Source: Azolla caroliniana (lineage: Eukaryota; Plantae; Polypodiophyta). From it: 64,000 nucleotides of DNA. The stretch spans positions 11,718,001 to 11,782,000 of the forward strand of contig JBHGNT010000021.1 in the NCBI GenBank assembly GCA_043228905.1, in the 5' to 3' direction. The position numbers and the translations under genes were made by a program. This document shows, piece after piece, positions 22,258 to 55,745 of the stretch (position 1 is the stretch's first letter; every line of letters starts with the position of its first letter). The notes under the pieces were generated by a model, which worked only from the letters and a program-made list of their open reading frames with translations, ran no database searches and had not been told where the DNA came from.

Positions 22258-22297
<40 letters not shown>

Positions 22298-22301
<4 letters not shown>

Positions 22302-22877: not shown

Positions 22878-22914
<37 letters not shown>

Positions 22915-25011: not shown

Positions 25012-25129
25012 TTTTGATGATGATGAAAAACTTAATGCTGTACCCATGAACCCCATTTATATATAATGGCTGCGAGTCCTCTTGTCACTATCCAGGTGAT
25101 TTCTCTTAGAGTACGCACAACTTGGATAA

Positions 25130-26939: not shown

Positions 26940-29900
26940 TGTTGAGATATCCAGCTCAACTACACACTAGATGTCGAATACGGGTACATAATAGACGTAT
27001 TCACATTGTCCCATTGGACTAGGCCACATTTATAAATATTGAAAGGGTAGTTGCCCTAGTTCAAATTGTATTTAAACTGAACTTTGTAACCTACTTGTGT
27101 TGTTGTTGCCATTATAACTTCTTGATAATAATACAACTACACAGTTTGTGCCCATTGGTCTCTCGCTCACTCTCTGCACTTGAATCTTGATCTTGTTTGC
27201 TAATACAATTGCCTTTGCTTCTCTTGTCAATCAGTTCCTCTTGACCTTGTTCAACATCAACAAGAAGATCTTCATCATATAGAGTGCTGGGTTTGTTCCG
27301 CATCTGACAATCACTTCCAACATATGGTATCGGAGCTTGGTTCTGTATTCTAGTGGTGATCGTCTTCTGTCTTCAACAATACTCTTGCATTCACCCCCTT
27401 GAAGATCTCCTAGTTGATTTTACTTGATAGAACAAAATCTAAGATTTCAGCTGAATTGAAATCTCTCAGCCGGAAACTGCCACAAGATCACACTCTGTGA
27501 GAAGAAATACTTGAAAAATTGCACTCCAATAAGCTAGATCACCCTTGAAGTAGGCCAACCGGTTGTACTTTGTCTTCGTGATTGTAGCTGCTTGGAGTGA
27601 GATTTTTCATCGAAACAGTCTCAATCGTGCTTCATCAGGTTAGGCGGCAATCAGACAGGTCATTCGACGTTGTTCACTTGCTCATTGTAACCACCCAAAG
27701 CAGATCAGGACTAAAGCACAACCTCGTCTGCGTTCCATTAAGCTAGGTGGCATTCGGACAGGCCAGTCAATGTTGTCCATCCACACGTTGTAGCCACTTG
27801 GTGCAGGATCGATGTCCGAAAAGGCACAAACGGCATATAATCTGCTATCAGCTTTGAAATTGGCATAAGGAATCGGATCACCAATAACCGTGCCCAATCC
27901 GGCTAGGCATTATTTGGGAAGAACAATCGATTCTATCTCTCCAACTGCCATAGTCACTCCGGATAGGTTTAGTTCAGCATCATTCGAAACCTAATCGGCT
28001 AAATAAGCAAATTCAGGTCCAATTCGGTTAGGCACGAATTGGCTGTAGCCACTCTGAATCGAACACATCGACAGTTGAAATAAATTTGGCTCGTGTCCAA
28101 TCTGTCTAGAACAAATTCAGGTGAGCCAACAAGCTGCACACCCTACCACCATTTGTAGCCGACTCCAAACAAAGCTTACCAAGCCGAAATAGAAGGGCAT
28201 CAACATTTGGCTCATTCGAGATGAGTCTAAGGAAGTTCAATGGATCGAACTTCAACTTCTGGAAAGGACAAGTGCAGGACTATCTGATTGTCAAAGGTCC
28301 GATAGATCTGATTGAGTTCGAAAATCCCCCAGAAGAGTACAAGCCGAATAAGTGGACAAAATTAGATCGGATTTTTCGGGTCACCATTTGGATGCACTTG
28401 TTGGAGTCAGTGTACTTCACAATGCAATCATGTTCAATGGCCTTCCAACTCTGGAAGACATTATCGGACACCTGTAAAAAGAAGGTCGTTGCAACAAAGA
28501 TATATCTGATCTGGTGCCTCTACAACCTTCGGATGAAAGAATCCAATTCGCTCCAAGCACACATAAACAAATATGAGAATTTGAGTTCCCAATTGTCGGC
28601 TCAGGGAGTCACTATAGAAGATGAGCTAAAAGCTTTTGTATTGATGAGCACCCTGCCTCCGACTTGGGAAAACTATGTCACCATTGTATGCAATGCATCC
28701 AGAACGACCGTAAGCTACTCCGAATTGAAGAGCTCAAATTTGACGGAAGATGCTTTGAGGAGATCATTCGTTCACAATTCGGCCAATGATGCTTTTGTAG
28801 TACAGAGTTCGGATGACTGACTGAACAACAAGAGAAGAAGTTCTTCTCGATCGCCGAGTAATCCGCTGTTGTGAAGATTTCTGGCCATAAGAGAAAGAGT
28901 GCAAGGATGCACACGAACTAGGGCTTATGTACATAAAACATATATGTAAATACCGAGGTCTAATAAGTACTAGACAAAGATAGTTTATTCGGTATTTTAA
29001 GGATCCCATAAAAAGAGGGCAATAATAGGATATGATGGGAGTAAATCGTGTGAGGGATTGCTGATAGGAGTGGCTATCATCAATGCTGATGTATCCAACC
29101 TCCCCTTTGTGCTACAAAAGGGGAGGAACGGATCTAAATCGGGGAGTCGTGTTTTGGGGAGAACGAAGTATTGCTGGATTTCGGAGTGGTTAGCTCACTT
29201 CATTTTCTTGGGTTTCTTGTTGTCGTGCTGTGAGGCCTCTGTTTTGGAAGCTCGTGTACTCTTGATCAGAGGCTTCCTGGATTCGCTGCGTGTGTGTAGA
29301 GCTCGAAGCTCTGTTACCGACCGAGCCCGGTTATACTTCTCTTATTATAAGTTAATCAACTATTTTGTTGCTTTCGGATTTTCCTGTGTCTTTCAGTTTT
29401 TGCTTGTATTCTCGTCTTTTCCCTCTCATCTGTGTGTGCATACCCGAGTCTGCTAGCCCGTGGGGTCATTGCTTGCTACCGGGCGGCAGTTCCGGAACAG
29501 AGTACGCATCCGAGCCCGTGTGCTCATCATCCGGCATCCGGAGACTGTATGGATTGGATATGTGTCCGTGCCGCGCCCCGACGAAGTTACCCAGAAACGA
29601 TTTGGATAATCCCCCTTTCGCTTCCCTTACCAGCTCCTTAGTTCGAGACCCCAGTGGTCTTGGCCATTTCGACACATACTTGCGGACTTTCGCGACACCG
29701 CGAAGTCGGAGCAAGTCTAAAGGAAGCCGAATATTCAACTATTGCAAAAAGCCTGGACATGTCAAGGCCGACTGCCGCGCCCTTAAAGCAAAGAATGATA
29801 AGGCTCAACGAGCTGATCTAAATTGTAGGCGACAAGAGGAGGTCAACTATGTCAGCTCATTAGTCGAAGTATTGATGGACAATCCGAACATACTATTCAT

Positions 29901-31134: not shown

Positions 31135-31770
31135 TGTCCCAAAAATTTGTGTACGTGCGTGCTTTGCACAAGCGGGACCACTGGGGTCTTGGAATGGGGA
31201 GGATGTTTTCGAACTTGTCGAAAAGAGGACGATGTTAATGTAAGAGACGGGGAAACCAATGCCACACTTGAAAAGATCAAAGGTTGTACACTTGAGAAGT
31301 AGATAAATAAGAAGAAGATAAAGAGGAATATTATATAATTGATGATGATGTTGATGATCTCCCAAAGAGGCCCTACTAGGGTTTTTATAGGTCTGTCTAT
31401 CCATGCTTCTAACATGCACAAAACCATGGGCTTGGTTGAACCCATGGTTTTTGCGCACATGGATTTTCTTGTGGCATGCATAAAACCATGGGTTTGAAAC
31501 CATGGTTTTGTGCACACGGTTTGTACGATTGTTTTTTATGCAATTTGAATATGAAAAGGAAAGCATTTAAACTATTTAGTAGTAGCCCTAGTGGTAAGGT
31601 AAATGTCTTCTATTTTGGAGGTGCAAGGTTCAAAACCTACTTGCACCCCTCTATATGCATTCAAATGCCTCTAAGCCCTAGGTTTATTTTCATATGTACA
31701 AGTGTTTGTGTAGTGTGCATGGAACTACACTTTTTCTCCCACTAGACACACCACATCATGGCATCCACCC
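31135..31770 (-). mobile_element. Gypsy-family LTR fragment carrying a tRNA-like cassette
   Basis: Terminus tgtcccaaaaatttgtg...gcgggaccactggggtcttgg homologous to the other family termini; rc TATAAAA 31383-31389; right boundary uncertain. Confidence 0.7.
31577..31650 (+). other. tRNA-like Pol III (A/B box) sequence inside LTR
   Basis: TAGCCCTAGTGGTAAGG ... GGAGGTGCAAGGTTCAAAACC; aligns with rc of 42658-42728. Confidence 0.65.
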
Positions 31771-31789
31771 CCACCAAACTGTACATCCT

Positions 31790-32043
31790 CCGGCTGGATA
31801 AAATTGTCAAACTTCTTATACCACTACTAGGGTGCCTGCTTTAGCCTATAAAGACTCTTCCCGAGTCGACAGACTAGATGCTCTTGGCCAGCTGCGACGA
31901 AACCTTTCGGTTGCTCCATGTAAATTTCCTCCTCTAGGTCGCCATGGAGGAAGGACGTCTTCACATCTAACTGTATAAGCTCCAGGTCCTCGACTGTCAG
32001 TATTCTGAGTAGGAATTGAAGGGTGGTCATTTTCACCAATGGT
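31790..32043 (-). pseudogene. Inverted copia RT fragment
   Basis: VKMTTLQFLL...QLDVKTSFLHGDLEEEIYMEQPKGF...LKQAP, same family as 37960-38190. Confidence 0.9.
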
Positions 32044-33299
32044 TTGAGATCCCGAGCTCTATCATTCTCTCTGTTTCTCTCTATACTGATTTGAGAGGAA
32101 GGTGAGGCCTTTGCTCGCGTAGGAAGCCCTTGTGCTCCCAACCAGAGGCTCATCGTTCTGTGTGTGTGTGCAGAGCTAGAAGCTCTGTTACCGGCCGAGT
32201 CTAGTTGTATTTTTCTCTATTTTAAGATTAATCGATTATATCTGTTGCCTTTCGGAGTTTACTGTGTCTTTCGGTTTCTACCTATATTCTCGTTTTTGCT
32301 CCCTCGTATTTGTGTGTGCATACCTAAGTGCGCCAACCCGTGGGCTCGTTGCTCGTTATCTGACGGTTGTTCTGGAACAATGTACGCGTCTGAGCCCGTG
32401 TGCTCATCATCCGACATCCAGAGACTGGTTCGGATCAAATACATGTCCGGACTACACTCCGACGAAGTTATCCGGAAACGATCTAGATAATCTCTCTCAC
32501 GCTTCTGGTGTGAATAGTTAAACCCACAAGGACATGGATTTATAGTGCAGGGTGGTAGCGTGTTCCAATGTGATGGGGTGAGTCAGGGCACAAATTCTGA
32601 ATTTTTTGAGGAGATTTGGCTTATGGTGGCGTGTTTAACGGTCCGACACATTTGGATTAGGCGTTGTAAGTTTGTTTTTCAGCAACAAAAGCTCTCGTGT
32701 GGGGAGGTGATGTTAAATATTTGGTTTGAGGTTGTGGCTTGGTTGCGGGGTCGATATGATTCGATTAAGGGGGAATTGGAAGAAACAGAAAGGGCAAGGT
32801 CAAAGTTCTTGTTGAAATGGAATGATTCTCCCATGATAGTCAAATCTTCGGCGAGGCCTAAGTGGAATTACTTGGCGCTTAGGTGGCTGTTTCCACCGAT
32901 GGCTCCCAATATTGTACATGGGTTGTAATTATGTATGTATAATTGAAGCAAAAGTGGGTTAATATAGTCATGTTGCCTGGATAATGTTGCTAGAAAAGAG
33001 TTAGTTGGGAGATGTAGAGTCGGGGTAAAAAAGGGGTTTATTTCAGTTTTGTTGGAGTTAAGGGTCGGGTAAGTTTTGGCTCTTTTTATTTGATAGTTTT
33101 GTAGTTGTTCCTCCAAGTTGTATATGTTGATCCCATTGTGGATTCGAGTAAAATCTGTTGTAATCTATTTGCTAACTAATGCGAGGTAGTGTGTTTTTGC
33201 TGAAAAAAAAATCTCTCTCATGCTTCTCTTATCGGCTCCTTAGTCCGAGATCCAGGTGGTCTCGCTCGTTTCTATACATACCCACAGATTTCTGCGACA
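32044..33299 (+). mobile_element. Gypsy-family LTR 3' part, interrupted by a LINE
   Basis: Homologous to 29300-29697; ends ...tctgcgaca at 33299. Confidence 0.8.
32507..33210 (+). mobile_element. 5'-truncated L1-like LINE with poly(A) and ~17-bp TSD
   Basis: ORF2 C-terminal-like VRHIWIRRCKFVF; A-tail 33203-33210; TSD atctctctca(c/t)gcttct at 32490-32506 and 33211-33227. Confidence 0.88.
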
Positions 33300-33720
33300 C
33301 TGTACCTGAGCAACACCCCTGAGGTGCCTTTCAAGTGCCTTAGTATCCACTTGATTGCTGTTAGAGACATTAGTTCCCTTAGGTCTATACACATCATTAA
33401 AGTAATTGTCAATGTTCTTTCCCTCACTATGTATTGGGTCCCAATGATTTACTACGTGCAAATGGGTATATCAATGGATCTCCCGTACAATTTTTGTTTG
33501 ATTCAGGAAGCTCACACAACTTTGTGAATGATCGTTTGGTTCAGATATGGGGAATCCAACCCATTGTAAGTGATCACACCTATACGGTGCACTTGGCTGA
33601 TGGAAGAGTACAATACATCAACGGGGCGATTCATTCATTAGGAATTTCTATTGATGCTTATATAGAGGAAGTATACTTCCATGTACTGAATCTTTGTACC
33701 GTTGATGTAATACTTAGAAT
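33300..33720 (+). pseudogene. Gypsy aspartic protease fragment
   Basis: LRANGYINGSPVQFLFDSGSSHNFVN...VHLADG...VDVIL. Confidence 0.8.
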
Positions 33721-33725
33721 CCAAT

Positions 33726-34045
33726 CTATATTTAGGTGGGCTAGAACAAGCATAATACAAATTTAGGAGACCTTTTGGTGTACAGTTGGTGTAGTACTAG
33801 TCACGATCCTATATTTAGGTGATCTAGTACTAACATAGTACACGTTTAATTCAGGATTTAGTTGTATTGTTGGTTTAGTACTAGTATCAATTCTATATTT
33901 AGGTGAGCTAGTACTAGAGCATAGTACTAGGTGTAAAGTTGGCGTAGTACTAGAATCCATCCTATATTTAGGGGAGCTAGTACTAACATAGTACACACTT
34001 CATTCTGGAATTAGTTGTACAGTTGGTTTAGTACGAATACCCGAT
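33726..34045 (+). repeat. Degenerate minisatellite (ctatatttaggtgagctagtact... units, ~70-85 bp)
   Basis: ctatatttagg recurs at ~33726, 33809, 33893 and 33962 with alternating unit types. Confidence 0.8.
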
Positions 34046-37000
34046 TCCGGAGGATGAGGCTCGTGAACCCTGAGAGGTTCAAGAAGAAGATGAAGGATTT
34101 GGTACTCTAGATGAGAGTCCGATCTCATTCCGGCTCAGTGGACCGAATGAGCGACTCAGTCGGGATGACCAGTCGGATGAAGAACCTACGACTAGTGGAC
34201 ACTCTGCCGTGCTCTCTCCGTGCAAGGAACTGAGGAGACGGTTCATGTGCAAAGAGAAGGGGAAGAAGAAGATGCCAGATTACGATACCGGTAGTGAAGG
34301 GTCGGATCGGAACGAATCTGACCCCGGAAAGGAAGAAGGCGGATCTTTGTAAAGGAAGTCTAAACCGGCCAAGAAGGGCCTCAACCTAGATAACGAAAAG
34401 TTACGCTGGTCAACCCGTCAAAAGAAAACCGTCATGAGGTACGGATACAATGAGTACATGGCGCATCATTATGCGTCCATGACGAAGGTGGCGGAAGTGC
34501 GTGAGCCGGAGGGCTATGCAAAAGCAACAAAAGATGCAAATTGGCGTGTTTCTATGGAGGAAGAAATGCGGGCACTAGATGCCAAGGACACATGGGACCT
34601 GGTTGACCCACCCCGACAATGCAAACCGATCGGTCGCAAGTGGGTGTACATGGTAAAGTACAACGCCGACGGTTCAGTCAACAGGTACAAAGCCCGGTTA
34701 GTGGCGAAGGGATATGCATAGACCCACGAAATCGACTATGATGAGACCTTCGCTCTGGTAGCGAAGATGACGACGGTTCGTGTGGTACTAGCTATTGTTG
34801 CGGCAAGGAGATGACATCTTCACCAAATGGACATGAAGAATGCATTTCTTCAAGGTGATCTTGAAGAATGGGTCTATATGATCCAACCTCCTGGTTTCCA
34901 ATCGGAGATGAACAAGTTGGCAGTGTGCCAACTCAAGAAGTCACTTTACGATTTGAAGGAAGCCCCCCAAGCTTGGAATGCGAAGTTCACGCATCGGTTG
35001 CATAAGATGGGGTTGGCGGCCTCAAAGTCCGACTCGTCACTGTTCATCTGGAACGGTCTGGTTTGTATCCTGCTATATGTTGATGATTTAGTCATCACTG
35101 AACTCGGACTGGATGAAATCGGCAAAGTGAAGTCCCAACTATCAAACGCATTTGAAATTAAGGACCTGGGGGACCTTCATTATTTTCTTGGGATCAAGGT
35201 GATCCGGACCCTTGATGGCATATTGCTCTCAAAAAGACACTACGTGTTGAATATGATGTACAAGTTCGGCATGACGGAATGTCGACCAATCTCCACACTC
35301 CTGAACCAGAACCTGAAGCTACGTCCCGACTCTAGACCGGCCTGCGATGAGAAACGGTTCCGAAAAATTGTCGAAGCCTTATATACTTGACGATCACCCA
35401 ACCCGACATCAGTTATCCAGTCGAGATGATCAACCAGTTCGTACAGAAGCCGACCGTCGAGCATGTTCAGTGCGTACACCGGATACTCCGGTATGTTAGT
35501 GGCACGAAGGACCGGGGACTGTTATACCGACATGGTATAGCTAGGAAGCTACTCCGATATACCGATGCCGACTGGGTTGGTGATGCACCAAATCGCTGAT
35601 CCACCTCCGGTTACATGTTTTCTCTTGGTAGCGCGGTTGTTGCGTGGAGCAACAAAAAGCAGCCAACAGTGGCTTTGTCGAGCATTGAGGCTGAATACCG
35701 AGGCGCTACCATTGCCACCTTTGAAGCCATCTAGCTTTGATGATTGCGGCGTGACCTCTGGATTGGTGTACCGATCCTGATCCCGATCTACTGCGACAAC
35801 ATGAGCATCATACAACTCGCCAAGAACCCAATGTTCCATGCTCGGACGAAGCACATAGAAGTGCACTATCACTTTGTGCGTGAGAGGGTTTTGAGCGGTG
35901 AAATTGAACTTCGATATGTTCACACATGTCGGTAGGTTGCCGACATCTTCACCAAGATGCCTGAATCGGAGAAGTTGCCACATTTTTCGTAGATGCTCAG
36001 CATTCAACGTCTTGATGTGCCGCACTTGAGGGGGAGAACAGGAACGGGAACGGATGGCACCAGACAAGGAGCCGGAGAGGAAGAAAGAACCAAAGGGGGA
36101 GATAGGCAAATAAAGAAAGCCAAGCCGATCGAAGGAGTCAGCACATCCGAACAAGTCGGAGCAAGCGGTAGTGGTAGAGTCAAGAAGGACAAAGCCGACC
36201 GGGAGAAGGCCAAGACACAGACGTGGTTCGATGTGGTGAAGGGCCTAAAAACGAAAGACAAGTTGGAGACGACCAACTCAGACAAGAGCTGGAACGAATC
36301 GGAGGAAGCGAAGCCAATTCAGTTCAAGATTCGGAGGACCCGGATCAACTAATGGCCAAGCGGATGAGAAGGCAACGGAAGTCGACACCGAAACGGAGGA
36401 TACAATGGGTTGACACGCGCCGAAGTCGTAGTAGTGAAGGATCTGAGATGAGTTTGCTAAGACGACAAGCCGACCGAGGAGGTCGAGGTGCGCGGAACCG
36501 GAAGGGTTGCGGGAAACGGGACTGGACCAGACAAGGAGCGCGAGCAAGGCGGAGGAAAGGACCGGCTACTGCGGACATTGACACCATGATCCGACCTCAA
36601 GTTGAGCTTGAGGGGGAGTGTTGAGCGAGCAAGCTCAACTGGATCTGGATCGGCTGAATAAGCCAGAGTCGAATCGGTATTTGGAACGGAGAACCGGATC
36701 GGTGTCCGGATGATATTCAGAGCCAGGAGCCGGATCGGAATGAAACCGGTAGGCCGTTAGAGGCCTACGGATCCAGCCTAGTACGTAGGCATATTTCTTG
36801 GGAGTCAGTGACAGTCTCTCGTATGAGCATTGAAGTACCTGTCAGTACTTCTGTTAGTCCTTTTATGGACATGTATAAAAGTGCTCTCTGAGTAGATTCT
36901 ATGGACACAGAGTTTTAGAGTGTTATTTTTTAATAGAGTTTATGTTCTACTCTCTCTCTCTCTCTACTGGGTACGCGTACTGTGTGTGTGTTAAGTTTTC

Positions 37001-37065
37001 TTTTCATCTTTTGTTGCTACCGGCTGAGCCGGTTTGTCAAACGCTTCCGCACGTTTACTTTGACA
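34045..37065 (+). mobile_element. Ty1/copia 3' portion (RT-RH, extended 3' region, 3' LTR 36619-37065)
   Basis: YKARLVAKGY, LYVDDLV, YTDADW, FHARTKHIEVHYHFVRE; PPT gagggggag 36610-36618; LTR tgttgagcg...ttgaca. Confidence 0.93.
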
Positions 37066-39655
37066 GTTTCCATGCTCCAACACTCTGGACTATCAGATGG
37101 CTTCTGGGCAGAGGCCCTACTTACGGTAGTACACATAATCAATATGTCGCTGAGTAAGCCTCTAGGACTTTGGATACCTCAGGAACTATGGACCAGTAGC
37201 AAGCCGAATTACGACAAGCTAAGGATTTTCGGGTGCGAGGCATACACCGTCATATAGAAAGACAATCACCGCAAACTTGCACCAAGGTCCAGGAAATGCA
37301 TTTTCCTCGGTTATGGACCATATGACAAAATCGGCTACCGACTCAGGGACCCCGAACACAGACAGATCATCCGAAGTTCGGATATAGTGTTCAATGAGTC
37401 GGCCATCCATCAATTTGCCGAAAAGCCGACCGAAGTTCGAAGGGTAATTTTTTTGGGTGTGCCAACCCTTCATGAAGGCACAACACACAACACGAGGTCG
37501 GCTTCATGGGTAGCCAAAACCTCTAGCACTGACTCGACTCTGCACGACTTGGCACAACCGAACGATTTGGATCTTGACCATCCGATTGAGACACCCGATG
37601 CGACTAGTTCAGTCATACCTCAAAGATCCAAGAGTCTCTCACAACCCCTAGAGAGATACTGTCCTGGTATCATCTTTACGGACGCCGGAGATCTGACGTC
37701 ATATGAAGAAGCATCATCGGCATCTGCCGATTCGGCCACCTGGCATCTGGCAATGGAGTCCGAGATGAACTCCATTCGAGCAAACCAAACTTGGGACTTG
37801 GTCAAGCTCCCGAAGAATCGATATGCTCTTTCGTGGAAGTGGGTTTATCGAGTCAAATAGACGTTTGATTCGACCACCCCAAAATTCAAGGCCAGAATAG
37901 TAGCTAAGGGTTTTCGACAAGAATATGGCGTTGATTTCGATGAAATATTTTCACCAGTGGTGAAAATGACAGCGCTTAGACTCTTGCTCGGCATCGTGGC
38001 AGCCGAGGACTTATAGTTGATTCAGCTAGGTATCAAAACAACATTACTCCATGGGGATCTAGAGGAGGAAATTTATATGGAGCACCCGAAAGGCTTCGTG
38101 GCACCCGACCAAGAACATCTAGTTTGCCGACTCAGGAAGAGTCTTTACAGCCTCAAACAAGCACCACGATAGTGGTACAAGAAGTTCAACGACTTCATCC
38201 AGTCGATCGGCTTCTCAAAGAGCAATGAGGACCACTACCTCTTCACCAAAACAACTCGAGATGGATCTCCCATCTTCCTCATCATCTACGTGAACTCGTT
38301 CGGCAATTGCAGTTGAAGTTTGCCATGAAGGACCTCGGTCCAACAAGACACATTCTCGGCATGAAGATTAGTCAGAATCGAAATCGAAGAAAATTGTTTC
38401 TGTCCCAATCTATCTATATTAGACGTGTCCTCGAACACTTCAACATGCAATTAGGAAAATCTGCTTCGACCCCGCTCCCCATTAGCCTTCGGTGTCTTAG
38501 CGAGACTGTCCGACATCCGGCTCGGAGGGGGAAATTATGAAGTTGGTACCATATGCACCAACAGCTGGCTCCCTGATGTATGCGATGGTCGCGATGCGGC
38601 CTGACATTGCTCACGTCGTAGGAGTCATCAGTAGATTCATGCACAATCATGGTTGATCGCATTGGAACATAGTAAAGCATGTGTTCAGATATCTGGTGGG
38701 CACAAAAGACCATGGCATCCTATTCGGTTCGAATGACACATCTGGCGTAGTCGGATACATCGACTCGGACTTTGCCGGATGTGTGGATAGTTGAAAATCG
38801 ACAACCAGATATTGCTTCAAACTTGGCAATGGAGCGAGCTCGTGGAAATCGAAACTCCAGGAGTGCACTGCTACATCAAAAACCAAGGCCGTATACGTAG
38901 CCACGTCAGACACGGCGAAAGAAGCTTTATGGCTCCGTCGGCTCGCATTCACATTTCGACAAGTCAAATCCAACTCGGCTCCAGTTGTCTATAGCGACAG
39001 TCAAGGTGTTCTTGCTCTATCGAAAAATCCGGTTCATCACAATGCCTCTAAGCATATCGACGTTCGATATCACTTTGTTCGGGATTGCGTCATGTCAGGG
39101 AAAATCGACCTTGAGAAGATACCTATAGCCGATAATGTCGTAGATGGGATGACCAAGTGTCTTTCGGCGGATCGATTATGATCCCTTTGGCACCAGATGG
39201 GCGTAATGAAGAATTAGTATGATTAAGTCGGACACTTATGATGTTTTCGAACAATCGACTTTGACACTTCGAAGTTCGGCTTTACTTTCCCCAACTCGGC
39301 CACTTCGGCCTCTTGTTTTTTGAAGTTCACCGACTTGAACGAAATTTCAATTTGCTCAAAAACTTTGCATCAAACTGTATTATACATTTATTTCGATTTA
39401 CAGATTTTCGATGTATACGCCCATTACGGGGGAGTGTTGAATGCGGGTCTCTAATGGACGTATATATAAACTGACTTTGTAATCTAGTTTTGGAGATGTT
39501 GAAAATATAGTACATCTTGTGCCTAACGTCTCTCTCATGCATTGCGGTTTCTGTTGATATTGTTGTTGCTATCAATCCACCTTGCTTGTATCTATTTATG
39601 ATCTTCTCTCTAGAAGAGTGTGATTTGTTCCGCACTAGCGGCCGCGTTTCCAACA
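37066..39655 (+). mobile_element. Ty1/copia 3' portion (INT-RT-RH, PPT, 3' LTR 39435-39655), host of the preceding element
   Basis: MLQHSGLSDGFWAEAL, AMESEMNSI, KHIDVRYHFVR; PPT acgggggag; LTR tgttgaatg...ccaaca. Confidence 0.9.
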
Positions 39656-39990
39656 CGGGGTCTTGGACTAAAGGAGCTAGTGAGAGAAGGAAGGTTGTTC
39701 GGATCCTTTCCGGATAACTTGCCTAGATCGATTTCTGAACATGTATCCGATCCAGATTGATCCCTAGGTGCCGAACGGTGAGTGCACGGGCTCGGAGGCG
39801 TATATTGTTCTGGAATGGTTGCCGAATAGCAAGGATGAGCTCACGGGCTCACTCACTCAGATACGCAAACTCAACAGGAATAGATCAGAGACAAGGACAC
39901 GGGAAAGCCCATAGACACGAAGAAACTTAGCGAATTAATGATTAATAGGAAAACAGAAAAGATTACAACTGGACGCGGCCGGCAGAAGAG
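39656..39990 (-). repeat. Gypsy-family LTR fragment
   Basis: Reverse complement similar to 29300-29660 and 32165-32500. Confidence 0.75.
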
Positions 39991-41514
39991 CTTTGAGTGG
40001 GGTGAAGAGGGGACGAGATCCCATGTCTTATTCTTGTAGAGTTCTTGCATCTCCTCATCCATTGCTTCGACCCATCGCAGGTCCTTCATGGCTTCGGAAA
40101 ATGTTTCCGACTCTCAGACTGTCACCACCTTCATCATGAATACATAATGATATGCCATGTAGTCATTGTAGCGAAATCGGTTGACTACATTCTTCTCTCG
40201 GGTGGAGCGCTTTCATTTGTCCTGCTTCGGACTCGGCCTTGACGTGCTTTGGTCGTTCTGAGCTCCTGTGGTCCACTCAACCTGGTTGAGATTGGAATTT
40301 CCTCTATTGTGAGCCTCAATCGATCACCCTCCTCGAGTCTATATCAAAGTTGGTTTAGATCGGATCGGATGGAGTTGAGTTAGTTGTGTACCAAGACACT
40401 GATTTGTCAAATACGACATCCCTACTCACTCATACCTTCTTGGTAGAGGGGTTGAAGCACTTATACCCTTTTTGTTCGAGTGAGTACCCCAGAAGAATAC
40501 ATTTCTCTGACTTAGGATCAAGCTTCTACCACTTCTCATAGGGAATATGTACAAATGTGATAGAGTCGAATATCCTTACGTGGGATAGATCTGTCTTCTT
40601 TCAATAGAATTTCTCGTAGGGGGTGACATTGTGCACTTCGGATGTTGTGCATCGATTCATGAGATAGACAGTCGTGTTCGCTACTTCAGCCCAGTATGAT
40701 TTCAGCAATGTTTCTCATTCATTAGTCATGTTCACTACTTCAGCCTGTCGAATTCCTTCTTGTCGAAGGTATGTTATGAATGCATCAGAGAAATACTCAT
40801 TGCCGCCATCCGATCGAAGGCATCGAACATGCCGACCGGTTGCCTTTTCGACTTTGTGTTTGAATTTTTGGAAGTGCGAGAACACCAATCTTTTGCCGCA
40901 TTGGGAATATCTAGGTGTGACTAGAGAAGTCATCGATGAACGCCACATAGTACCGACAACCTCCGAATGTTGTCGTTTGGGTTATTCCCCATAGATTTGA
41001 ATGTACTACATCCAGGATCCCTTGGCTTACGTTTATCTCTTTTGAGAACAGTTGTCACTGTTGTTTACTTAATGGGCAGGCTTCGCATACGCCTGCAATC
41101 TCCGTCTCGGTAAAGATTTGGAGTTCGATGATGACTCCTTTCGACTTCATTCCTTTGAGCTTCTGGAGATTAATGTGGGCAATCCTTTTGTGCCTTAACT
41201 CTATGTCGATGTCGGCGTTATGGCCCTTGGAAAACATTGCCGATTTCATGTCGTGAGAGTCGAGGATGAACATTCGGCCTTCTCTCCATCCACGAGTGAT
41301 TGTTCAGCCTTCCTTTTCGATGAAGCATCCTCCGTCATTGAACTGAACTTGCATGCCTTGTTCCACAATTTGGCCAACCGAGACCAGGTTCTTCGTTATT
41401 GTTGGAACATGCAGGACGTTGCCCTCTTCGCCGAATGGGACATTACCAACATGTAGAATGGGGTGAATTGTGTCATCGCTAGTTTCCACATAGCCGAGTC
41501 ATTCAAGCTTTCAT

Positions 41515-41811
41515 CGGGGACGCACAAGCGCCCCTATTATAAGTCGGGTAACAACCAGGGAGGTAGAGAGCACCGCGTCTAGCATGGATTCTGACTTAGA
41601 GGCGTTCAGTCATAATCCTACACATGGTAGCTTCGTGCCATTGGCTTTTCAACCAACCGCAATGACCAATTATGTGAATCAATGGTTCCTGTTGTACTAA
41701 GTTGAATTAATATTGCGGCACCACTCGTCAGTAGGGTAAAACTAACCTGTCTCACGATGGTCTAAACCTAGCTCACGTTCCCTATTGGTGGGTGAAAAAT
41801 CCAGCACTTGG
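41515..41811 (-). rRNA. Degenerate 25S/26S rRNA 3'-region fragment (not a functional gene) inserted in copia protease region
   Basis: rc reads CCAAGTGCTGGATTTTTCACCCACCAATAGGGAACGTGAGCTAGGTTTAGACC..GTGAGACAGGTTAGTTTTACCCTACTGA...GGATTATGACTGAACGCCTCTAAGTCAGAATCC, conserved eukaryotic LSU sequence. Confidence 0.95.
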
Positions 41812-42185
41812 AACCAATACTTATGAGACGTGATGTGATTGGATGCCTCTAAGTCGACAAACTATACATTTTCCAAATTTGAGGTGCTTGTTTGGCATGA
41901 TGCCGTCATTGAATTCATCGAATTCACTCTATGCCACATCATGAACATTCTGCTACGATCGTCGTAGTCGGAGTTTGAGGCATAGTTGGTGAGTTGTCGG
42001 CTTGTGAAGGTCGGCTCACTCTTCTTCTTCCGACACTTTGCCTCGTAATGGCCGAATTTGCATAGTATTTGCACTAGACAGAGTTGTTTTGCTGGTTGGG
42101 TCCGACATGATTCCTCCCCCATCTTCCAGACACTCCCCATCATACGTTTGAAACGTCTTGCTAGTAGTAGAAGTTCTGTTCGCGT

Positions 42186-43217
42186 TGTCGTGAAGATTTT
42201 CAGCAATGGTGTGAAAATCGCATAAAACATACGAAATCTAGTATGAATAATATAAAACAATAATAGTGAAAATACTATTTTACATAAGTTTAATATCTTA
42301 GTACAAAAAGATGGAGGTCTTCAAGAGCTTTCGAATGCACTTTACTACATAAGAAACGGAAATCTAAGTCTCAAGTTATTTGGGTAGGAAGTTTGCAAAG
42401 GAAAAGAGAAAGATAAAACTATGAGATATCCCACATAGACAGGGCAAATACGAATCTCACCATATATAAGGTAGAGCAAAAGCTGTTATCTTTGTGTCTA
42501 TGTGTGGAGCATAGAGAGTTCAAGGGGACTTGAACTAACCTACTTGGATGAGTTGGTGTGGCCTAGCTACTTGTAAAAGTTTTTGGCCAACCAAAACTGG
42601 CGGTGGAGCCGGTGAGCCGGTGGTAACTAGCGGCGGCAACTGTGCATAAAAGAAAAAGATGTAAGCAAGACTTGAACTTTGCACCTCCAAGATAAGAAGC
42701 AATAGGCTTACCATTAAGCCAAATCATTTCTTTAGGGATTATATTTTTATCATTACAACTTTACATGTAAATTGTCATATTAGAGCTTGATTGAGTGACA
42801 TGTGATGCATGAGTGCTAAATGGCAAACATGCATCACATGCATTCCATGCATTCCATGCATTCCATGCATTGTATGCATGTCTTGTACCCTCACATGCAT
42901 CATATGCATGGGAGCATCTATAAAAGGGTGGATGAAAAAGATCAGAGGGGAGCGATGTATTAATCAAGAAATTAAAAGTAAGAAATTCGTTATCTAATTG
43001 ATGTATCAATCTTGTTCTTCAAATCTAAAGTCAAGAGTTCAATATTAATCTCTCTCAATCTAAAGTCAAGCGTTCTATCTTATCTCAAGCTCTCTCTCTC
43101 TTTCAATCTATCTGAAATACTTTCTCGCTAAAGCTTGTGCAAACTTCGAATCCTTCCGGTCCAGAACCCCGGCGGTTCCGCCTCATGATCCACACGTAGT
43201 GACGGATCTTCACGACA
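42186..43217 (+). mobile_element. Gypsy-family solo LTR (1032 bp)
   Basis: 12-bp terminal inverted repeat TGTCGTGAAGAT...ATCTTCACGACA; imperfect 4-bp TSD GCGT/ACGG; TATAAAA 42919-42925; interrupts copia gag. Confidence 0.88.
42658..42728 (-). other. tRNA-like Pol III (A/B box) sequence inside LTR
   Basis: rc TGGCTTAATGGTAAGCC...TTGGAGGTGCAAAGTTCAAGTC; aligns with 31577-31650. Confidence 0.65.
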
Positions 43218-46925: not shown

Positions 46926-49240
46926 TTTCGTGAAGATTTCAGGCCATAAGGGGAAACATAGCCAAATGTGTGTGAATGCAGGCGTGGCACAAGTGCACCC
47001 CCCTTTTGTACTAAGATGTGTAAATACTAAGTAATGATAGGGTTTTGGTGATTACTAGGAAGTTAGGCTTTAATAGATGCTTTAATATCACGTAGGTGGA
47101 GAAGAATAAAGGGGGGATAATGGGAGAAAATCAAGAAGAGAATCTTGGGGGGATAACGAAAGGTCATTAAACCTAATGTAACGGTCATCCCTTACGCTAT
47201 AAAAGGGGCGGCCCAGACTGTTTTAGGGGATGTTGGAGGAGAAGATAACTTTGTCATTCAGAGTACCAAAGCTCTCTCTCTTTATCTCTCTCTGATTACG
47301 ATCGACGACTGAAACTCAGGAAGGTGCATCCTCTGCTCGCGTCAGACGCCCGCGTGCTCCCGACAAGAGAATCATCACTCTGTGTGTGTTTACTATAGAG
47401 CTCAAAGCTCTGTTCTCAGCTCAGACCGGTTGTACCGCCCACATGGACACAAAGTACAAGATTGTGAACCGGAAGGTGAGGACAATCACGACTCCCTTGC
47501 CGAAGGGCAGTTGGGAATGAATAAAGGGGGTCGCTACCAACTTGAGCTTGCGAGATCTGGTCGGCATAGGACACCGATTCACCGACAAGATGCTACGAGA
47601 ATTGAAGATCGGTGGGGGTGGCTTCCTACTGCCGGCGGAAGAGGACCAATTCAGAAGAATGCTTGAGAGGCATGGAAAAGCCTTCACATTCTCGCACGGA
47701 GAGATCAGGTGCATTGACCCGACCATTGTCAAACCGATGGTAATATTCATGGTACCGCACATGTCATGGAGTCTCAAGCTGATTCAGGTACCGAGAGTTC
47801 ACATCCCGAAGTTGATGGAGCTATTGAAGCAGAAGGTTGAGATGGGTATGCTCGAGCCGTTGAGTGCCTCTTAGTCAAATCGGTGGGTTACAATACCAAA
47901 GACGAACGGCTCACTGCACTTCATTTAGGACTTGCAACCGGTCAATAAAGTGACCATTCGCAATACGAGAGTCGGGCCGTCAATCGACGAATTCACGGAA
48001 GCCTTTTCCAGAATATCCATATACTCGGAGTACAACCAATTCCAACTAGTTGTCGAAAGCAAGGACATTACGATGATGCGAACTCCTCTTAGCCTAGTTC
48101 GGGTGTGTACCCTACCGCAAGGAGGGACCAATTTGGTGGTGCACATGGTGAATGCGATGAACAAAGTATTGAGGGACTGCATCCCGGACATCACCATACC
48201 ATTCCTGGGCAACATTCCTATCAAGGGGTGTCTGGAGGACACAAAGGACGAGTTGATCGGGGCAAACGGATGCCGAAGGTTTGTCGCGGACCATATTTCC
48301 GTCTGCCAGAAGATATTGTAGAGGCTTGAGGGTGCTCAACTTACCTTATCCAGGGAGAAGTCAACTTTCGGGCAATCGGAGATCTTAGTGGTCGAAAACC
48401 GTCCCCATCAAAGGTAGAGGCCATCTCGGCCATGAAAGAAGAGTGCGGATCCGTCACGGAGGTCCGATGGTTCTTGGGAGCATGCGCATTCTACCATATC
48501 TGGATTCCGCACTATGCGCATATCACCGAGCCACTCTACGGCTTGCTAAAGAAAGGCAAGAAATACGAATGGGGCGAAGAACACGCGGAGGCAGTGCAGA
48601 CACTAAAGGAAATGTTGATGGCTGCACCGCCTCTACGGAAAGCCATATACAAATTGGACACTCCGGTTTACATCACAGTGGATACCAGCCTGATTGGAAT
48701 CAGATGGGTCATAAATCAGGAAGATGAGAACGACGCGCGTTTTCCCATCCGGTTCTGTGCGAAGGTGCTGAACGAGCAGCAACGAGGATACACCCAAGTC
48801 AAGCGCGAACTATGGGGCATCCTTTCGGTGGTTATGGTCGACAAGGACTACTCAATCAGGACAGAAGTGATTATAGAAACGGACTGCCTAGCGATTCTCG
48901 GTATGGTTTTCGAATGCGCAATTCCAGATTTGGCGATGCTTAGATGGATTGCGTACATCAAGTTCCTGAACCCGGAAATACCATAAATTTCCAAAAAGGA
49001 CAATGCCATGGCCAAAATGCTTTCAAGAGAGAGGTTCGAGAATGAGGACGACATGATTTCGGAAAACGAAGAAGTCGGTGCGGACTTCTTCAAATCGGCC
49101 TGGATGAAGGGAAACAGGCGATGCACTCCGCCCCTGAACGAGTTCGACGAGAACGACTACGATGGGGAGTGGCTTCTAATCAGAAGATTCCTAAGCACGA
49201 TGACAGTGGACGGGTCATGGACAAGGGAGGAAGCGAGTCG
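46926..49240 (+). mobile_element. Internally deleted Ty3/gypsy element (partial LTR fused to RT-RNase H)
   Basis: LTR start t(t)tcgtgaagatttcaggcc; RT DLQPVNKVTIRN/LPQGGTN, RH ITVDTS/ELWGI/IETDC; same family as 61481-64000. Confidence 0.88.
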
Positions 49241-52200: not shown

Positions 52201-52727
52201 CGCAAGTAGGCCCCTACAAAGACGTAACCCCACTATATGCCGAAAGCGTGAACATGCGGGCAGGACTGCCCGACGAGGAGGTGGATTGCTACCTTGAAAA
52301 GAAACCAAGGATAGTCCCTCTGTTTGAAGTGGACATGAAAGAAGTGGTATCTCCATACATCGTGCAGACGGAAGAGGTCGGCGGGGAACCGGATAAGGAT
52401 GCAATCCGGGAACTACGGCAAGCATAGGAAGCCTTGGAATGGGAAATGCCGGTATCCTAACGAGTAAAGGCGTCCCTACTAGAAGAAGTAAATTTGGGCA
52501 CCGGAGAGGAAGCACGTCCGGTACACGTGGCCAAGGAGATGTCACCGGAAGACAAATCAGCAATGATAACATTATTAAAAGAATTCCGAGACGTTGTCGT
52601 GTTGTTACGTGCGTGTGTGGAGAAAGGCGGGACCACGGGGGTCTTGGACTAGGGAGTGACGGAGCGTAGGAAGTCGTACTTCACCGTTTCCGGGGCATCC
52701 CAGAAGCACACCGGAAGCAACCGAAGG

Positions 52728-52762
<35 letters not shown>

Positions 52763-53862
52763 ACGAAGCGAGTGTGGAGGATCCTCCTCTGATCCTGAGT
52801 CTTTCGTTTGCCGTCGTCCCCTCGCCCCCACCAGCTTGTCATCCCGGCTTGCCGTGTCAGTCTTCGCTACTTTGACGGAGCTACCGAGATCTACAAAGCG
52901 AGTGTGGAGGATCCTCCTCCGGCCTCTCTTGCCATCCCCTGACTCCGACCCTGTGCAGTCCACTAGGCACTTGTCACCTCGTTCCCGGCACCTCCCTTGT
53001 GCCGTCTTTCGCTTCCTTCGTTCGGCACCGCCCGTGCCGAACACTGTCCCGTAGTCACGCTTTGATCCGGCCCGCGATGGCCACTTACGAGACTCTTATT
53101 CCGTCCCAGGTGTGCCTTTCCGGCCTGACACACCTCCCCGTGTTTGCCCCTACCGGCTCCTTCCGAAACCTCGTGTTATCGGGTCCCGTTCCCTGCCGCC
53201 ACCGTCCTTCTCCCTAGGTCTCACGTTGCCACGTTGGCCGAACTGCCGGAGTCTCCGGATCGGTGTGAGGGTCCTATAGGACCGGACTCCGTTTCCATGC
53301 TTGCCGAGATCCGGGTGTCTTTTGTTTGAGTCCCTCCCGGACTCTCCTCGTGTCTTCCGCGTAGTAGGGTCCCGTTTCCCGCCGCCACCTTCCTTCTCCC
53401 TCGGTCTTATGTTGCCACGTTGGCCAAACAGCCAGAGTCTCTGGAACCGGTGTGGGGATCCCGTAGGACCAAACTTCCTTATGCTCACTGACCTTGCCGG
53501 AAGCTCCGATTTGGTTTGTGGCCGCCTCGCCGGCCTGATACCTCCTTGCCGTTCGTCGCCTCTATCGTCCGATCACGTTCTCCTGCCGCCACCGATCCTC
53601 CCTATAGGACTCACGTCGACTCACGCCGGATCGGTGTGAGGATCTCCGTAGACTGCCCATCCGTAGCCCTTTTGCCTTCGTCACCTCGCCGCCACCGTCA
53701 GTATCTTGGTCTTACGTCGACCGCGTTGCCGACAGCCGAAGTCTCTAGAACCGGTGTGAAGGATCCTCCTTGGGCCTCTGATTTGTCTTCCTGACCCTGT
53801 CCCGGGTCGTCCCTTTCCGCATGCCGAGAGTGCGGTTTACTCTGCACCTTCTCCCGTGGTAC

Positions 53863-54819
53863 CTACGTACCGTCTCCTCGGCCTCTTCGTAGGCCGGCTC
53901 TTTTCCTCCCTCCCGGAATGGTCATCCGGGAGTCCGCTCTGCCCGGTTCTCGTCTGGGCCACCGCCCCTTTTTGTGGTGTCGGTGGATAGCATCCGCTCT
54001 GTGATCAATCAAGCCCCGCTTGAGCTTGATTCTCCAATGTCCGGAGTTTCGGCTCCGATGCTGACCTTGCCAGACTCGTTCCGAACCTTTAATCACCTTC
54101 CTTCGAATTCGGGCCTCAACGCCGACCCTTGCCAACTCCCTTTGTCGCTCGGCCTCTTCCTGCTGTGATGGCACGCCGTCACGCCCCTTCCTCTTAGCCT
54201 TCTTGGCTCGCTCATCGTCTAGCCGTTGGCACACCCTTCCAACCTTCGACCAGTCCTCCGTAAGCCCATTCGCTCCGTCATCGTCTTCGAGCTCAATCCC
54301 GATGGCATCCCGTTCCGCTCGGTCGATCGACCTGACGAACAATAGGACCTTGTTCGCCCCCACCAAACCTTGTTCCCGCTCCGGCAGCCGAGCAAGCCGT
54401 CGCTCGAACTCTCGGAGCGCCTTGGTCGCACCCCGGTGGGGCTTTGCTGATGCTACCCACTGGTCGAAGTCATGTCGACCCCGGCTCTTCTGCCGTCCTC
54501 CGTATGCCTTCAGGAGCGCCTCTTCGAAGGCCTCCCATGAACTATGAGCCTCATGGAGCTCCTTTACTTCCGCATGCATCCGGACAGCTACGACTCGATA
54601 GAAGAACCCCAGCCTCAACGCCTCGTCTACGCCACGCTCCTCCATTTCCGCGTTGTAGGCTTCCAAGTAAGATGGGACTTTGTCCCCGTTGAAACGACCA
54701 ACTCTTTCGACCACTTGCTCAACCGCTTGTTGCGCTGCTTCTCGCCTCATCACCACTCATGCCGACTCCAACACCACTTCGGCCACCATCGCCGCGAGGT
54801 CGTCGTCTTCCGACTCCAT
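53863..54819 (-). pseudogene. Gag-like ORF of the gypsy element
   Basis: VGRFNGDKVPSYLEAYNAEM...SWEAFEEALLKAY; upstream ATG at 54819 separated by one in-frame TGA. Confidence 0.8.
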
Positions 54820-54834
54820 CCTCCCTTGCCGCCT

Positions 54835-54852
54835 TTCACGTCGGGTTCACCA
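54835..54852 (-). promoter_or_regulatory. Primer-binding site complementary to the tRNA-Trp 3' end
   Basis: TTCACGTCGGGTTCACCA matches the recalled plant tRNA-Trp(CCA) 3' 18 nt; lies 4 nt from the LTR. Confidence 0.85.
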
Positions 54853-54988
54853 AATATGTCGTGTTGTTATGCGCGTGCGTGGAGAAAGGCGGGACCACGG
54901 GGGTCTTGGACTAGGGAGTGACGGAGCGTAGGAAGTCGTACTTCACCATTTCCGGGGCATCCCAGAAGCACACCGGAAGCAACCGAAG

Positions 54989-55028
<40 letters not shown>

Positions 55029-55745
55029 TTAACACCGACTCACGCACACACACACACATGCCGACCCGACTCACGCCCTTATGTACAGGAACCGTAGGAA
55101 AGGGGAAGCACCTGACACCTACAAAGACGCGAATATACACAGACAAACGTAAATGTATATATATAAAGGAAGAATACATTCCCGGCTTCGAGCCGGACCA
55201 AGGTAGGTTACAACAGTCGTCTGTTGTCAAGTCGCCGTCGGGGAGCTCTCGGCTCGTCGCACCCAGCGGGGTCTGGCACAGGAGGTCGAGCCAAAGCAAA
55301 CCCTAAGCAAAACACGAAGGGGGAAGAAGAAGAAGAAGAAGAAGAACTAACCCTAAATCTAACGGTATACCCTCTAACGCAAAAATGGGCAACCCTTTCA
55401 CAAAGGGCGCTCCCTTCCTTTTATAGAACAAGGAGAGGGATGCGTTACAATGTGGGATAAATCCCGACTTAACTACTCTTCGGCGCCATAAAGGCGCCCT
55501 CGTTATTCACACTAAATGTACATGGGTGCGTACACACGCTGCACCCCGCCGATGTAGCCAATGTTTCCTGGTTTCCGCCTCTGGCCGAAATTCTTCACGA
55601 CAACGTATTCGCCCGATCCTATGAAGATATGCGGGGACTTCACCCCCAACTCTATCAAGACCAGATTCACCTCAGCAAGGATGCTAAGTCAGTGGCACAA
55701 TGACACTATCAGATGAACCCAAACTACGCGGCAAGAGTAAAGGAG

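What the first reader, a model, noticed from the sequence alone, without database searches (positions are those of the whole stretch)
31383..42925. LTRs carrying a divergently oriented tRNA-like Pol III cassette at a fixed distance from the TATA box
Seen: two diverged LTRs of the CpG-flanked family (31135-~31770 and 42186-43217) each contain an alignable ~70-nt tRNA-like unit (A box TAGCCCTAGTGG / TGGCTTAATGG; GGAGGTGCAA.GTTCAA B box). Both are antisense to the LTR and start ~195 bp from TATAAAA, separated from it by CATG-rich repeats. Established: Cassandra TRIMs carry 5S Pol III promoters in their LTRs, and TFIIIC-bound B boxes can act as insulators. Inference: this could be a captured tRNA/SINE head retained as an insulator, anti-silencing module or small-RNA source.
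Basis: partly seen in the sequence, partly recalled or inferred. Interest (0 to 1): 0.7.

Follow-up and report, generated by a model that had tools for sequence, protein, structure and literature searches.

The report
Backward tRNA promoter in retrotransposon ends
Several families of a plant jumping gene carry, in their end repeats, a backward-facing relic of a tRNA gene that has lost its tRNA shape but kept its two promoter signals about 195 bases from the element's own promoter, where it likely docks a host factor that would shield that promoter from silencing.

Summary
Both units lie antisense in the U3 of Phygy-type Ty3/gypsy LTRs (4-bp NCGN targets, tRNA-Trp primer site), 194 and 198 bp from the TATA box. 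A motif scan gave 33 more copies from a related plant host. All 33 lie antisense in such LTRs, in four LTR types whose U3 regions barely align outside the unit; one is attached to an uninterrupted RT-RNaseH-integrase frame. No SINE tails or own target duplications. A-box and B-box positions are kept at tRNA spacing, while the cloverleaf (48% paired), the CAA start motif (0 of 29) and a fixed terminator are not. The TATA distance is typical (median 195.5, range 119-255), not fixed, and 4 of 6 complete-U3 family LTRs in the window lack the unit. Best reading: one old capture of a tRNA/SINE head, kept as a TFIIIC docking site bordering the enhancer; binding, transcription and barrier function are untested. 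It is not Helenus or Cassandra (sense, miniature, non-coding). The scan has notes on antisense tRNA-like units in fungal and protist retrotransposons, but I found none on this family.

The parts
31135..31763 (-). LTR A (629 bp), 3' LTR of a Phygy-type element, LTR type A
   Evidence: 71-78% identity over about 660-720 nt to LTRs in L009, L031, L064; termini, U5 motif and PPT
31764..31778 (-). Polypurine tract next to LTR A; the internal region breaks off near 31793, fused to an inverted copia RT piece
   Evidence: same tract precedes LTRs in L009, L064, L101, L120; RT match 31791-32043 inverted
31576..31650 (+). tRNA-derived unit A, antisense to the LTR
   Evidence: profile E=1e-19; aligns column for column with a real tRNA-Ile
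31583..31594 (+). A box of unit A (one base longer than the canonical 11)
   Evidence: 31592-31598 show no variant at 12% or more among laid contigs
31628..31636 (+). B box of unit A (tRNA positions 53-61)
   Evidence: only position 60 varies at 12% or more
31620..31647 (.). 8-bp inverted repeat enclosing the B box (non-tRNA hairpin)
   Evidence: 85.8% of cells paired, no compensatory change among LTR copies; z<-2 in 20 of 31
31415..31514 (.). CATG-centred palindromic repeats between unit A and TATA (likely enhancer)
   Evidence: self-inverted match; CATG 189 seen vs 16.7 expected over 31 copies
31383..31389 (-). TATA box of LTR A
42186..43217 (+). LTR B (1032 bp), solo LTR of type B inside a copia gag region; flanks GCGT / ACGG
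   Evidence: 12-bp terminal inverted repeat; contigs of host-element relatives skip 1036 bases = LTR + 4
42657..42728 (-). tRNA-derived unit B, antisense to the LTR
   Evidence: profile E=5e-18; Rfam tRNA 13.2 bits, below threshold
42711..42721 (-). A box of unit B
42669..42677 (-). B box of unit B
   Evidence: the majority of laid contigs differ at 42678 and so match unit A there
42806..42911 (.). CATGCA-rich repeats between unit B and TATA (likely enhancer)
42919..42925 (+). TATA box of LTR B
28867..29697 (+). Solo LTR of the same clade without the unit; target duplication CCGC/CCGC
52595..55602 (-). gag-bearing element of the same clade, Trp primer site at 54852, ACGT/ACGT duplication; 5' LTR 54857-55602 has no unit
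60713..61406 (-). 3' LTR of a pol-bearing element of the same clade, no unit
46926..47420 (+). LTR of the same clade with complete U3 and no unit (3' end approximate)

Best explanation
The unit is a tRNA-derived head built antisense into the U3 of several Phygy-type Ty3/gypsy LTR families, where it has kept its A and B boxes but lost the tRNA fold, and it likely works as a docking site for TFIIIC that would form a chromatin border on the outer side of the LTR's enhancer and TATA box. Shown: location, orientation, tRNA-like spacing, conservation of boxes over flanks, loss of the cloverleaf, absence of SINE insertion marks, presence in gag- and pol-bearing elements. Inferred: a single old capture, copied into both LTRs by normal reverse transcription and then carried through LTR diversification; TFIIIC binding, with little or no productive Pol III transcription; protection of the Pol II promoter when the element lands at CpG sites inside other repeats, as both window copies did (they sit in copia sequence).
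For: 33 of 33 plant-host hits carry LTR hallmarks on the opposite strand (27 a 5' terminus, 29 a TATA, 15 a U5 motif or PBS), 0 of 33 a U5/PBS in the sense arrangement. The A-box core, not part of the search pattern, lies within 45 nt before the core in 30 of 31 distinct copies, 28 of them at 28-29 nt; control 61 of 7790 windows. Between LTR types the A-box 3' part is 80-92% identical (5 of its 10 positions were the anchor), the anticodon arm between the boxes 35-43% against types D and E, flanks 18-44%. Contigs laid without motif selection show no variant at 12% or more at 31592-31598, 31618-31634 or C61; variable places were 4 of 36 in the box regions, 5 of 18 in the anticodon arm, 10 of 30 in the 3' flank. 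T8-G53 spacing is 44-46 in 28 of 35 rows, 44 in a real tRNA-Ile that the unit profile hits at 22.8 bits (shuffles at most 4.3). Cloverleaf 47.6% paired, no better than slid controls. CAA at -10..-1 in 0 of 29; first T4 run 1-143 nt past the core. Distance to TATA varies less (CV 0.16) than distance to the LTR 5' end (CV 0.86). Precedent: TFIIIC sites without Pol III insulate chromatin in yeasts, flies and mammals (PMC6950938 abstract); a mouse B2 copy 200 bp upstream of a start site bounds methylation (PMC8136502 passages).
Against: No binding, chromatin or transcript data. 4 of 6 complete-U3 LTRs of the clade in the window lack the unit, so it is dispensable. Conservation extends beyond the B box: 11 bases 5' of it and the 3' arm of a hairpin are also invariant, which TFIIIC binding alone does not explain. 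A review states that no homologue of animal or yeast barrier elements has been shown to act so in plants (PMC9540200 passages). In the mouse B2 case the boundary lowered expression of the neighbouring gene, so the sign of the effect is open. C61 is present in only 25 of 31 and type A has a one-base-longer A box. The 17-nt core was my search pattern, so its identity in L007 and L037 is by construction; types D and E rest on 2 and 1 distinct copies. The upstream region is 77-85% AT, with TATA at -38..-20 in 9 of 29, so Pol III initiation is not excluded.
Confidence: 0.42

Rival explanations
1. The unit is an active Pol III gene that makes a short antisense RNA (roughly 75-130 nt, with a 3' hairpin) complementary to the U3 in the element's own genomic RNA, used for self-regulation or as a small-RNA source or decoy, as foamy-virus LTRs make Pol III pri-miRNAs.
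For: Both boxes kept at tRNA spacing; AT-rich upstream; 3' hairpin z<-2 in 20 of 31 and slightly more stable on the unit strand in 27 of 31; tRNA position U33 invariant in 28 of 28 aligned copies; precedent PMC3993851 (passages).
Against: No CAA motif (0 of 29); terminator position not conserved; no compensatory changes in the hairpin; the strand asymmetry in energy is mostly 1-3 kcal and expected from G-U pairs; 5' half unstructured (0 of 31 with z<-2).
Confidence: 0.24
2. The tRNA origin is incidental; what is selected now is the 17-28 bp palindromic core as a binding site for a Pol II regulator, or as a stem in the genomic RNA or cDNA used in replication.
For: The invariant stretch 31618-31634 and the 3' arm 31640-31650 exceed the B box; far more contig depth lies on this half than on the A-box half (a weak measure); types D and E form a long stem with different 3' arms.
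Against: It does not explain the A-box core at fixed tRNA spacing across four LTR types with a diverged arm between them; inside the B box only the free position 60 varies; L101 and L104 have lost or broken the 3' arm.
Confidence: 0.19
3. A SINE head inserted once and hitch-hikes neutrally; similarity between LTR types reflects recent module swapping by recombination rather than selection.
For: LTR types do recombine: several copies have a B-like 5' end and an A-like body (L025, L058, L076, L117, L118), and type A LTRs precede two different gag types (L071, L074). Many clade LTRs lack the unit. A very similar head occurs in a non-LTR repeat in other samples (L008).
Against: Recent transfer predicts even identity along the unit; instead the anticodon arm is at background level against types D and E while the boxes on both sides are kept.
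Confidence: 0.12
4. The units are independent insertions of a free SINE into LTRs.
For: Plant genomes hold tRNA-derived SINEs (recalled); a similar head exists outside LTRs in other samples.
Against: 0 of 33 plant-host copies outside these LTRs, one orientation, one position; only 4 of 31 have any flanking repeat of 8 nt or an A8 run, each different and AT-rich; flanks are family-specific LTR sequence.
Confidence: 0.03

Closest known systems
Helenus / TRIMp3 (Kojima 2024, PMC10886601; parts 1-4 of 6, passages and one supplementary passage read)
   Same: [quoted passage not shown]
   Different: Helenus are non-coding TRIMs of 311-1263 bp; in the LTR sequences I saw (Helenus-1_SMo, three ToGe families) the tRNA is sense and is proposed to make the template RNA; plant Helenus has a 120-bp LTR and 5-bp duplication. 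Here: antisense, 630-1150-bp LTRs with their own TATA box, gag- or pol-bearing elements, 4-bp NCGN target. The paper notes that 'not a few' Repbase LTRs contain tRNA-like parts but followed up only TRIMs.
Cassandra (as described in PMC10886601)
   Same: Plant LTR element, including ferns, with a Pol III promoter in its LTR.
   Different: 5S-derived, sense, drives the element's transcript, TRIM of 565-860 bp.
Phygy clade of plant non-chromovirus Ty3/gypsy (Neumann et al. 2019, PMC6317226; passages and supplementary table row)
   Same: 4-bp NCGN duplication (100%), tRNA-Trp primer site (81%), no chromodomain, non-seed plant host.
   Different: Described there as specific to Physcomitrella; no tRNA-like LTR unit in the passages seen; here also short gag-only derivatives.
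Foamy virus LTR Pol III miRNA cassettes (PMC3993851; passages)
   Same: A/B-box Pol III units inside the LTR of a coding retroelement that also has a Pol II promoter.
   Different: There transcription, terminators and miRNA products are shown; here no fixed terminator, no pre-miRNA-length stem, a clear tRNA ancestry and antisense orientation.
Extra-TFIIIC sites, tDNA barriers and B2 SINE boundaries (PMC6950938 abstract; PMC8136502 and PMC9540200 passages)
   Same: Box A/B motifs acting as chromatin borders with or without Pol III transcription.
   Different: Shown in yeasts and animals, not in plants, and not as a built-in part of an LTR.

Membership tests
Phygy (non-chromovirus Ty3/gypsy) | 4-bp target duplication with NCGN preference | tested here: met
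   CCGC/CCGC at 28863 and 29698, ACGT/ACGT at 52591 and 55603, ACGG/ACGG in L031; LTR B has GCGT/ACGG, two mismatches, with empty sites skipping LTR+4
Phygy (non-chromovirus Ty3/gypsy) | tRNA-Trp primer-binding site | tested here: inconclusive
   One conserved PBS follows unit-bearing LTRs in L036, L071, L074, a variant in L007, and the window LTR at 54852; its assignment to tRNA-Trp is recalled, not matched to a fetched tRNA
Phygy (non-chromovirus Ty3/gypsy) | RT-RH-INT order without chromodomain, non-seed plant relatives | tested here: met
   L007 frame of 1060 aa; 120 listed relatives show RT, RNase H and integrase families and no chromodomain family; the species named are Riccia and Adiantum
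Phygy (non-chromovirus Ty3/gypsy) | Placement in the Phygy branch of the REXdb RT/RH/INT tree | not testable with these tools
Helenus / TRIMp3 | tRNA-like sequence with boxes A and B in the LTR | tested here: met
Helenus / TRIMp3 | Short non-coding TRIM (311-1263 bp) | tested here: not met
   L064 element about 3.4 kb with gag; L007 with gag and pol; single LTRs 629-1149 bp
Helenus / TRIMp3 | Pol III promoter oriented to make the element's template RNA | tested here: not met
   antisense in 33 of 33 loci and both window copies
Free tRNA-derived SINE | Own target duplication, body and A-rich or simple tail, dispersed copies | tested here: not met
Functional tRNA gene | Cloverleaf with paired acceptor, D, anticodon and T stems | tested here: not met
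   acceptor 30%, D 63.5%, anticodon 46.5%, T 60.8% paired; ARAGORN default 0 of 31
Plant type-2 Pol III gene | A and B boxes at tRNA spacing | tested here: met
   44-46 nt in 28 of 35 rows; C61 in 25 of 31
Plant type-2 Pol III gene | Upstream TATA near -35, CAA at -7..-3, T-run terminator (PMC3082873) | tested here: inconclusive
   TATA 9 of 29, CAA 0 of 29; T4 position variable; position 1 is an estimate
Extra-TFIIIC site / chromatin barrier | TFIIIC bound without Pol III; blocks spread of silent chromatin | not testable with these tools
   no ChIP, methylome or reporter data available

The most novel reading that the evidence does not exclude
A branch of CpG-targeting plant retrotransposons has domesticated a tRNA-type promoter as a portable chromatin barrier: each new insertion brings its own TFIIIC site, placed about one nucleosome repeat outside the TATA box, CpG-poor, and pointing away from the enhancer, so the LTR stays expressible inside methylated repeat stacks. 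That would be a transposon-encoded anti-silencing cis-element and a natural TFIIIC barrier in plants.
Probability: 0.3. Interest if true: 0.85.

Novelty: new variant of a known kind. Interest (0 to 1): 0.58.

Why it matters
Pol III promoters in LTRs were known as the sense promoters of miniature non-coding elements (Cassandra, Helenus, Ajax) and as miRNA cassettes of foamy viruses. Here one is conserved in an orientation that cannot make the element's RNA, in coding elements that have a Pol II promoter, so it is kept for some other reason. The same clade has LTRs with and without it in one genome, probably in large numbers, which makes a natural control for asking whether TFIIIC sites act as chromatin barriers in plants, a point a 2022 review lists as unshown. 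If instead it is a small-RNA gene, it would be a retrotransposon-encoded antisense regulator. Either way these copies are decoy tRNA-like loci for annotation of large fern-type genomes.

Tried and rejected
No whole genome is held for this window, so no genome-wide count or tree was possible. ARAGORN default: 0 in the window and 0 of 31 copies. Rfam: no tRNA hit in 20 loci searched whole at E up to 10. Parent tRNA not identified: blastn of units against phage records gave only T-arm matches at E 0.7-9 (tRNA-Pro, tRNA-Phe) for L007 and no tRNA for unit B; only 1 of 9 real tRNAs in the loci scored against the unit profile; anticodon positions vary. Expression: no RNA holder listed; one run guessed to be RNA gave 3 contigs of 162-955 nt that cover the unit and run on beyond it, another gave none; these contigs say nothing on a discrete RNA or its strand. 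Contig depth peaks on the unit are not copy numbers and were used only as a weak hint. Viral contigs held neither the motif nor pol relatives. The metagenome records behind the short loci could not be extended, so no pol gene is linked directly to a type A or B LTR. RNAalifold found only a 4-bp consensus helix without covariation. Considered and rejected: link to the PPT-replacing tRNA-Arg lineage noted by the scan in this genome (these elements have a PPT); use of the unit as a self-primer (no match to the PBS seen by eye; not formally tested); chance origin of the match.
Full report
Setting. The window is a stack of nested copia and gypsy fragments with one host gene. No whole genome is held. 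The host is a non-seed plant, likely a fern: the species named among the listed pol relatives are Riccia and Adiantum, and other notes of the scan call it a likely fern (unchecked).

Observation. Unit A is 31576-31650 (+) in a minus-strand LTR; unit B is 42657-42728 (-) in a plus-strand LTR; T8 lies 194 and 198 bp from TATAAAA. The unit is the only significant blastn match between the two LTRs (37/46, E=1e-5). Neither passes as a tRNA. LTR A is 31135-31763, a 3' LTR preceded by a PPT; its internal side is fused near 31793 to an inverted copia RT piece. LTR B is a solo LTR in a copia gag region; contigs of host-element relatives skip exactly LTR plus 4 bases.

Family. The 'CpG-flanked family' matches Phygy: Neumann et al. 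give 4-bp NCGN duplications (100%) and a tRNA-Trp PBS (81%). Perfect NCGN duplications are at 28863/29698 and 52591/55603 and in L031. The PBS is conserved; naming it Trp is from recall. No tree against reference Phygy proteins was possible.

More copies. 33 of the 120 come from one set of plant-host assemblies; 5 (L008, L050, L082, L091, L097) hold a similar head in another repeat; the other 82 look like chance matches or unrelated sequence and were dropped. All 33 show an LTR hallmark on the strand opposite the unit (27 a 5' terminus, 29 a TATA, 15 a U5 motif or PBS); none has a U5/PBS in the sense arrangement. After merging identical copies and adding the two window units there are 31: type A 18, B 10, D 2, E 1. 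In seven copies compared pairwise, the types align in U3 almost only across the unit: A with B over 46-72 nt, D and E with A or B over 17-70 nt. Unit-bearing LTRs border gag (L064, an element of about 3.4 kb; L071, L074) and, in L007, an uninterrupted 1060-aa frame with RT, RNase H and integrase (its start looks mis-assembled). No pol is linked directly to a type A or B LTR. Related contigs occur in runs labelled as other organisms (C, F). Of six clade LTRs in the window with a complete U3, two have the unit.

Own duplications or tails: 4 of 31 have any flanking 8-mer repeat or A8 run, all different and AT-rich. Boxes versus flanks: the A-box core TA.TGGT, not in my pattern, occurs within 45 nt of the core in 30 of 31, at 28-29 nt in 28; control 61 of 7790 windows. 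Between types, the A-box 3' part is 80-92% identical (half of it was the anchor), the anticodon arm 66% for A-B and 35-43% against D and E, flanks 18-44%. Because the B-box core was my search pattern, I laid unselected contigs on unit A: 221 from run X1 show no variant at 12% or more at 31592-31598, 31618-31634, C61 or 31640-31650, while position 60 and anticodon positions 34-35 vary. Counts of variable places: 4 of 36 in box regions, 5 of 18 in the anticodon arm, 2 of 14 in the 3' arm, 10 of 30 in the 3' flank, 3 of 18 in the thinly covered 5' flank. Only contigs at least 80% alike are counted, which flattens all of these.

tRNA ancestry. T8-G53 spacing is 44-46 in 28 of 35 rows. A profile made only from LTR units hits a real tRNA-Ile over its length at 22.8 bits; 8 other tRNAs score 2 bits or less; 450 shuffles reach at most 4.3. 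That tRNA aligns column for column, with A14, G18, G19, U33, G53-A58 invariant. Relaxed ARAGORN (80%) of 31 on the unit strand, 0 of 31 on the other, 14 of 620 shuffles and 68 of 620 core-fixed shuffles. The parent tRNA is not identified.

What is not kept. The cloverleaf is 47.6% paired, within the range of slid controls. CAA is absent at -10..-1 in 29 of 29; TATA at -38..-20 is in 9 of 29, against 6 of 141 in a GC-richer control (motifs from PMC3082873). The first T4 run lies 1-143 nt past the core. What is kept besides the boxes is an 8-bp inverted repeat around the B box: 85.8% paired without compensatory change among LTR copies, z<-2 in 20 of 31. Units hold 6 CpG in 2047 nt, against 70 in 5327 nt on the enhancer side.

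Geometry. T13 to TATA: median 195.5, range 119-255, CV 0.16, n=26; 16 of 26 lie at 180-208. Core to LTR 5' end: 97-1116, CV 0.86, n=26, including one doubtful end (L038) and one nested insertion (L075). Types A and B hold the same spacing with unalignable CATG repeats in between (189 CATG vs 16.7 expected; 79 CATGCA/TGCATG). CATGCA is the RY element bound by B3-domain factors (recalled).

Mechanism. An antisense unit cannot make the genomic RNA, and the LTR has its own TATA box, so the Cassandra/Helenus role is excluded. Selection appears to act on the boxes and on the position relative to the Pol II promoter, not on a tRNA fold or a defined transcript end. That pattern fits TFIIIC binding best. 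A border on the outer side of the enhancer would be useful to an element that inserts at CpG and nests in other repeats. This step is inference from yeast and animal precedent; a review says such barriers are unshown in plants, and the B2 example lowers rather than protects expression. I give 0.42 to this reading, 0.24 to an antisense Pol III RNA, 0.19 to a palindromic site with another use, 0.12 to hitch-hiking, 0.03 to independent SINEs. That the unit is a tRNA-derived, LTR-integral module is much more secure (about 0.9).

Novelty. Searches returned no paper on a tRNA-like unit in Phygy or fern LTRs, or on an antisense one in coding LTR elements; I judged most listings by title and abstract start, and the library lacks most subscription journals and Repbase Reports. 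Kojima notes that other Repbase LTRs contain tRNA-like parts, so the broad phenomenon is known. What I saw of each paper: PMC10886601 parts 1-4 of 6, passages, one supplementary passage; PMC6317226 passages and one supplementary row; PMC6911290, PMC3993851, PMC8136502, PMC9540200, PMC3082873 passages; PMC6950938 abstract. Verdict: new variant of a known kind, interest 0.58.

Noticed in passing
window 41569-41722 and 41744-41833 (-): Two adjacent fragments of eukaryotic large-subunit rRNA (125.7 and 46.6 bits) embedded in the minus-strand copia element, just left of the gag region that holds LTR B.
   Followed up: no
L008:2165-2240, L050, L082, L091, L097: A tRNA-like head much like the L007 unit sits in an AT-rich repeat with no Phygy LTR hallmarks, in assemblies from other samples; a candidate for the parent SINE or a parallel capture.
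   Followed up: partly
window 31790-31793: The internal end of the LTR A element is fused to an inverted copia RT fragment at a shared CCGG; integrase on the left and RT on the right face opposite ways.
   Followed up: partly
window 11067-12365: A 1.3-kb inverted repeat, arms about 82-95% complementary; weak match to a miRNA family far below threshold.
   Followed up: no
window 22166-25011 (+): Host gene with a VHS domain (E=1e-25) and further exons; TOM1-like by recall.
   Followed up: no
window 59638-60324 (+); L071 first 1.4 kb: An unassigned 228-aa frame (no Pfam hit) in a gypsy-like element resembles by eye a frame in the sequence into which the L071 element inserted; possible extra ORF.
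   Followed up: no
L009, L037, L064, L075, L101, L120; window 31779-31793 and 61421-61446: A conserved block of about 25 bases lies just upstream of the PPT across unit-bearing and unit-less elements of the clade; a likely cis-signal.
   Followed up: no
window 25128-25646, 33694-34034, 58372-58628: Tandem arrays with periods of about 171, 84 and 54 bases.
   Followed up: no
L075: A unit-less clade LTR is followed directly by the GC-rich repeat region of a type B LTR, so the clade appears to nest in its own LTRs at CpG sites.
   Followed up: partly
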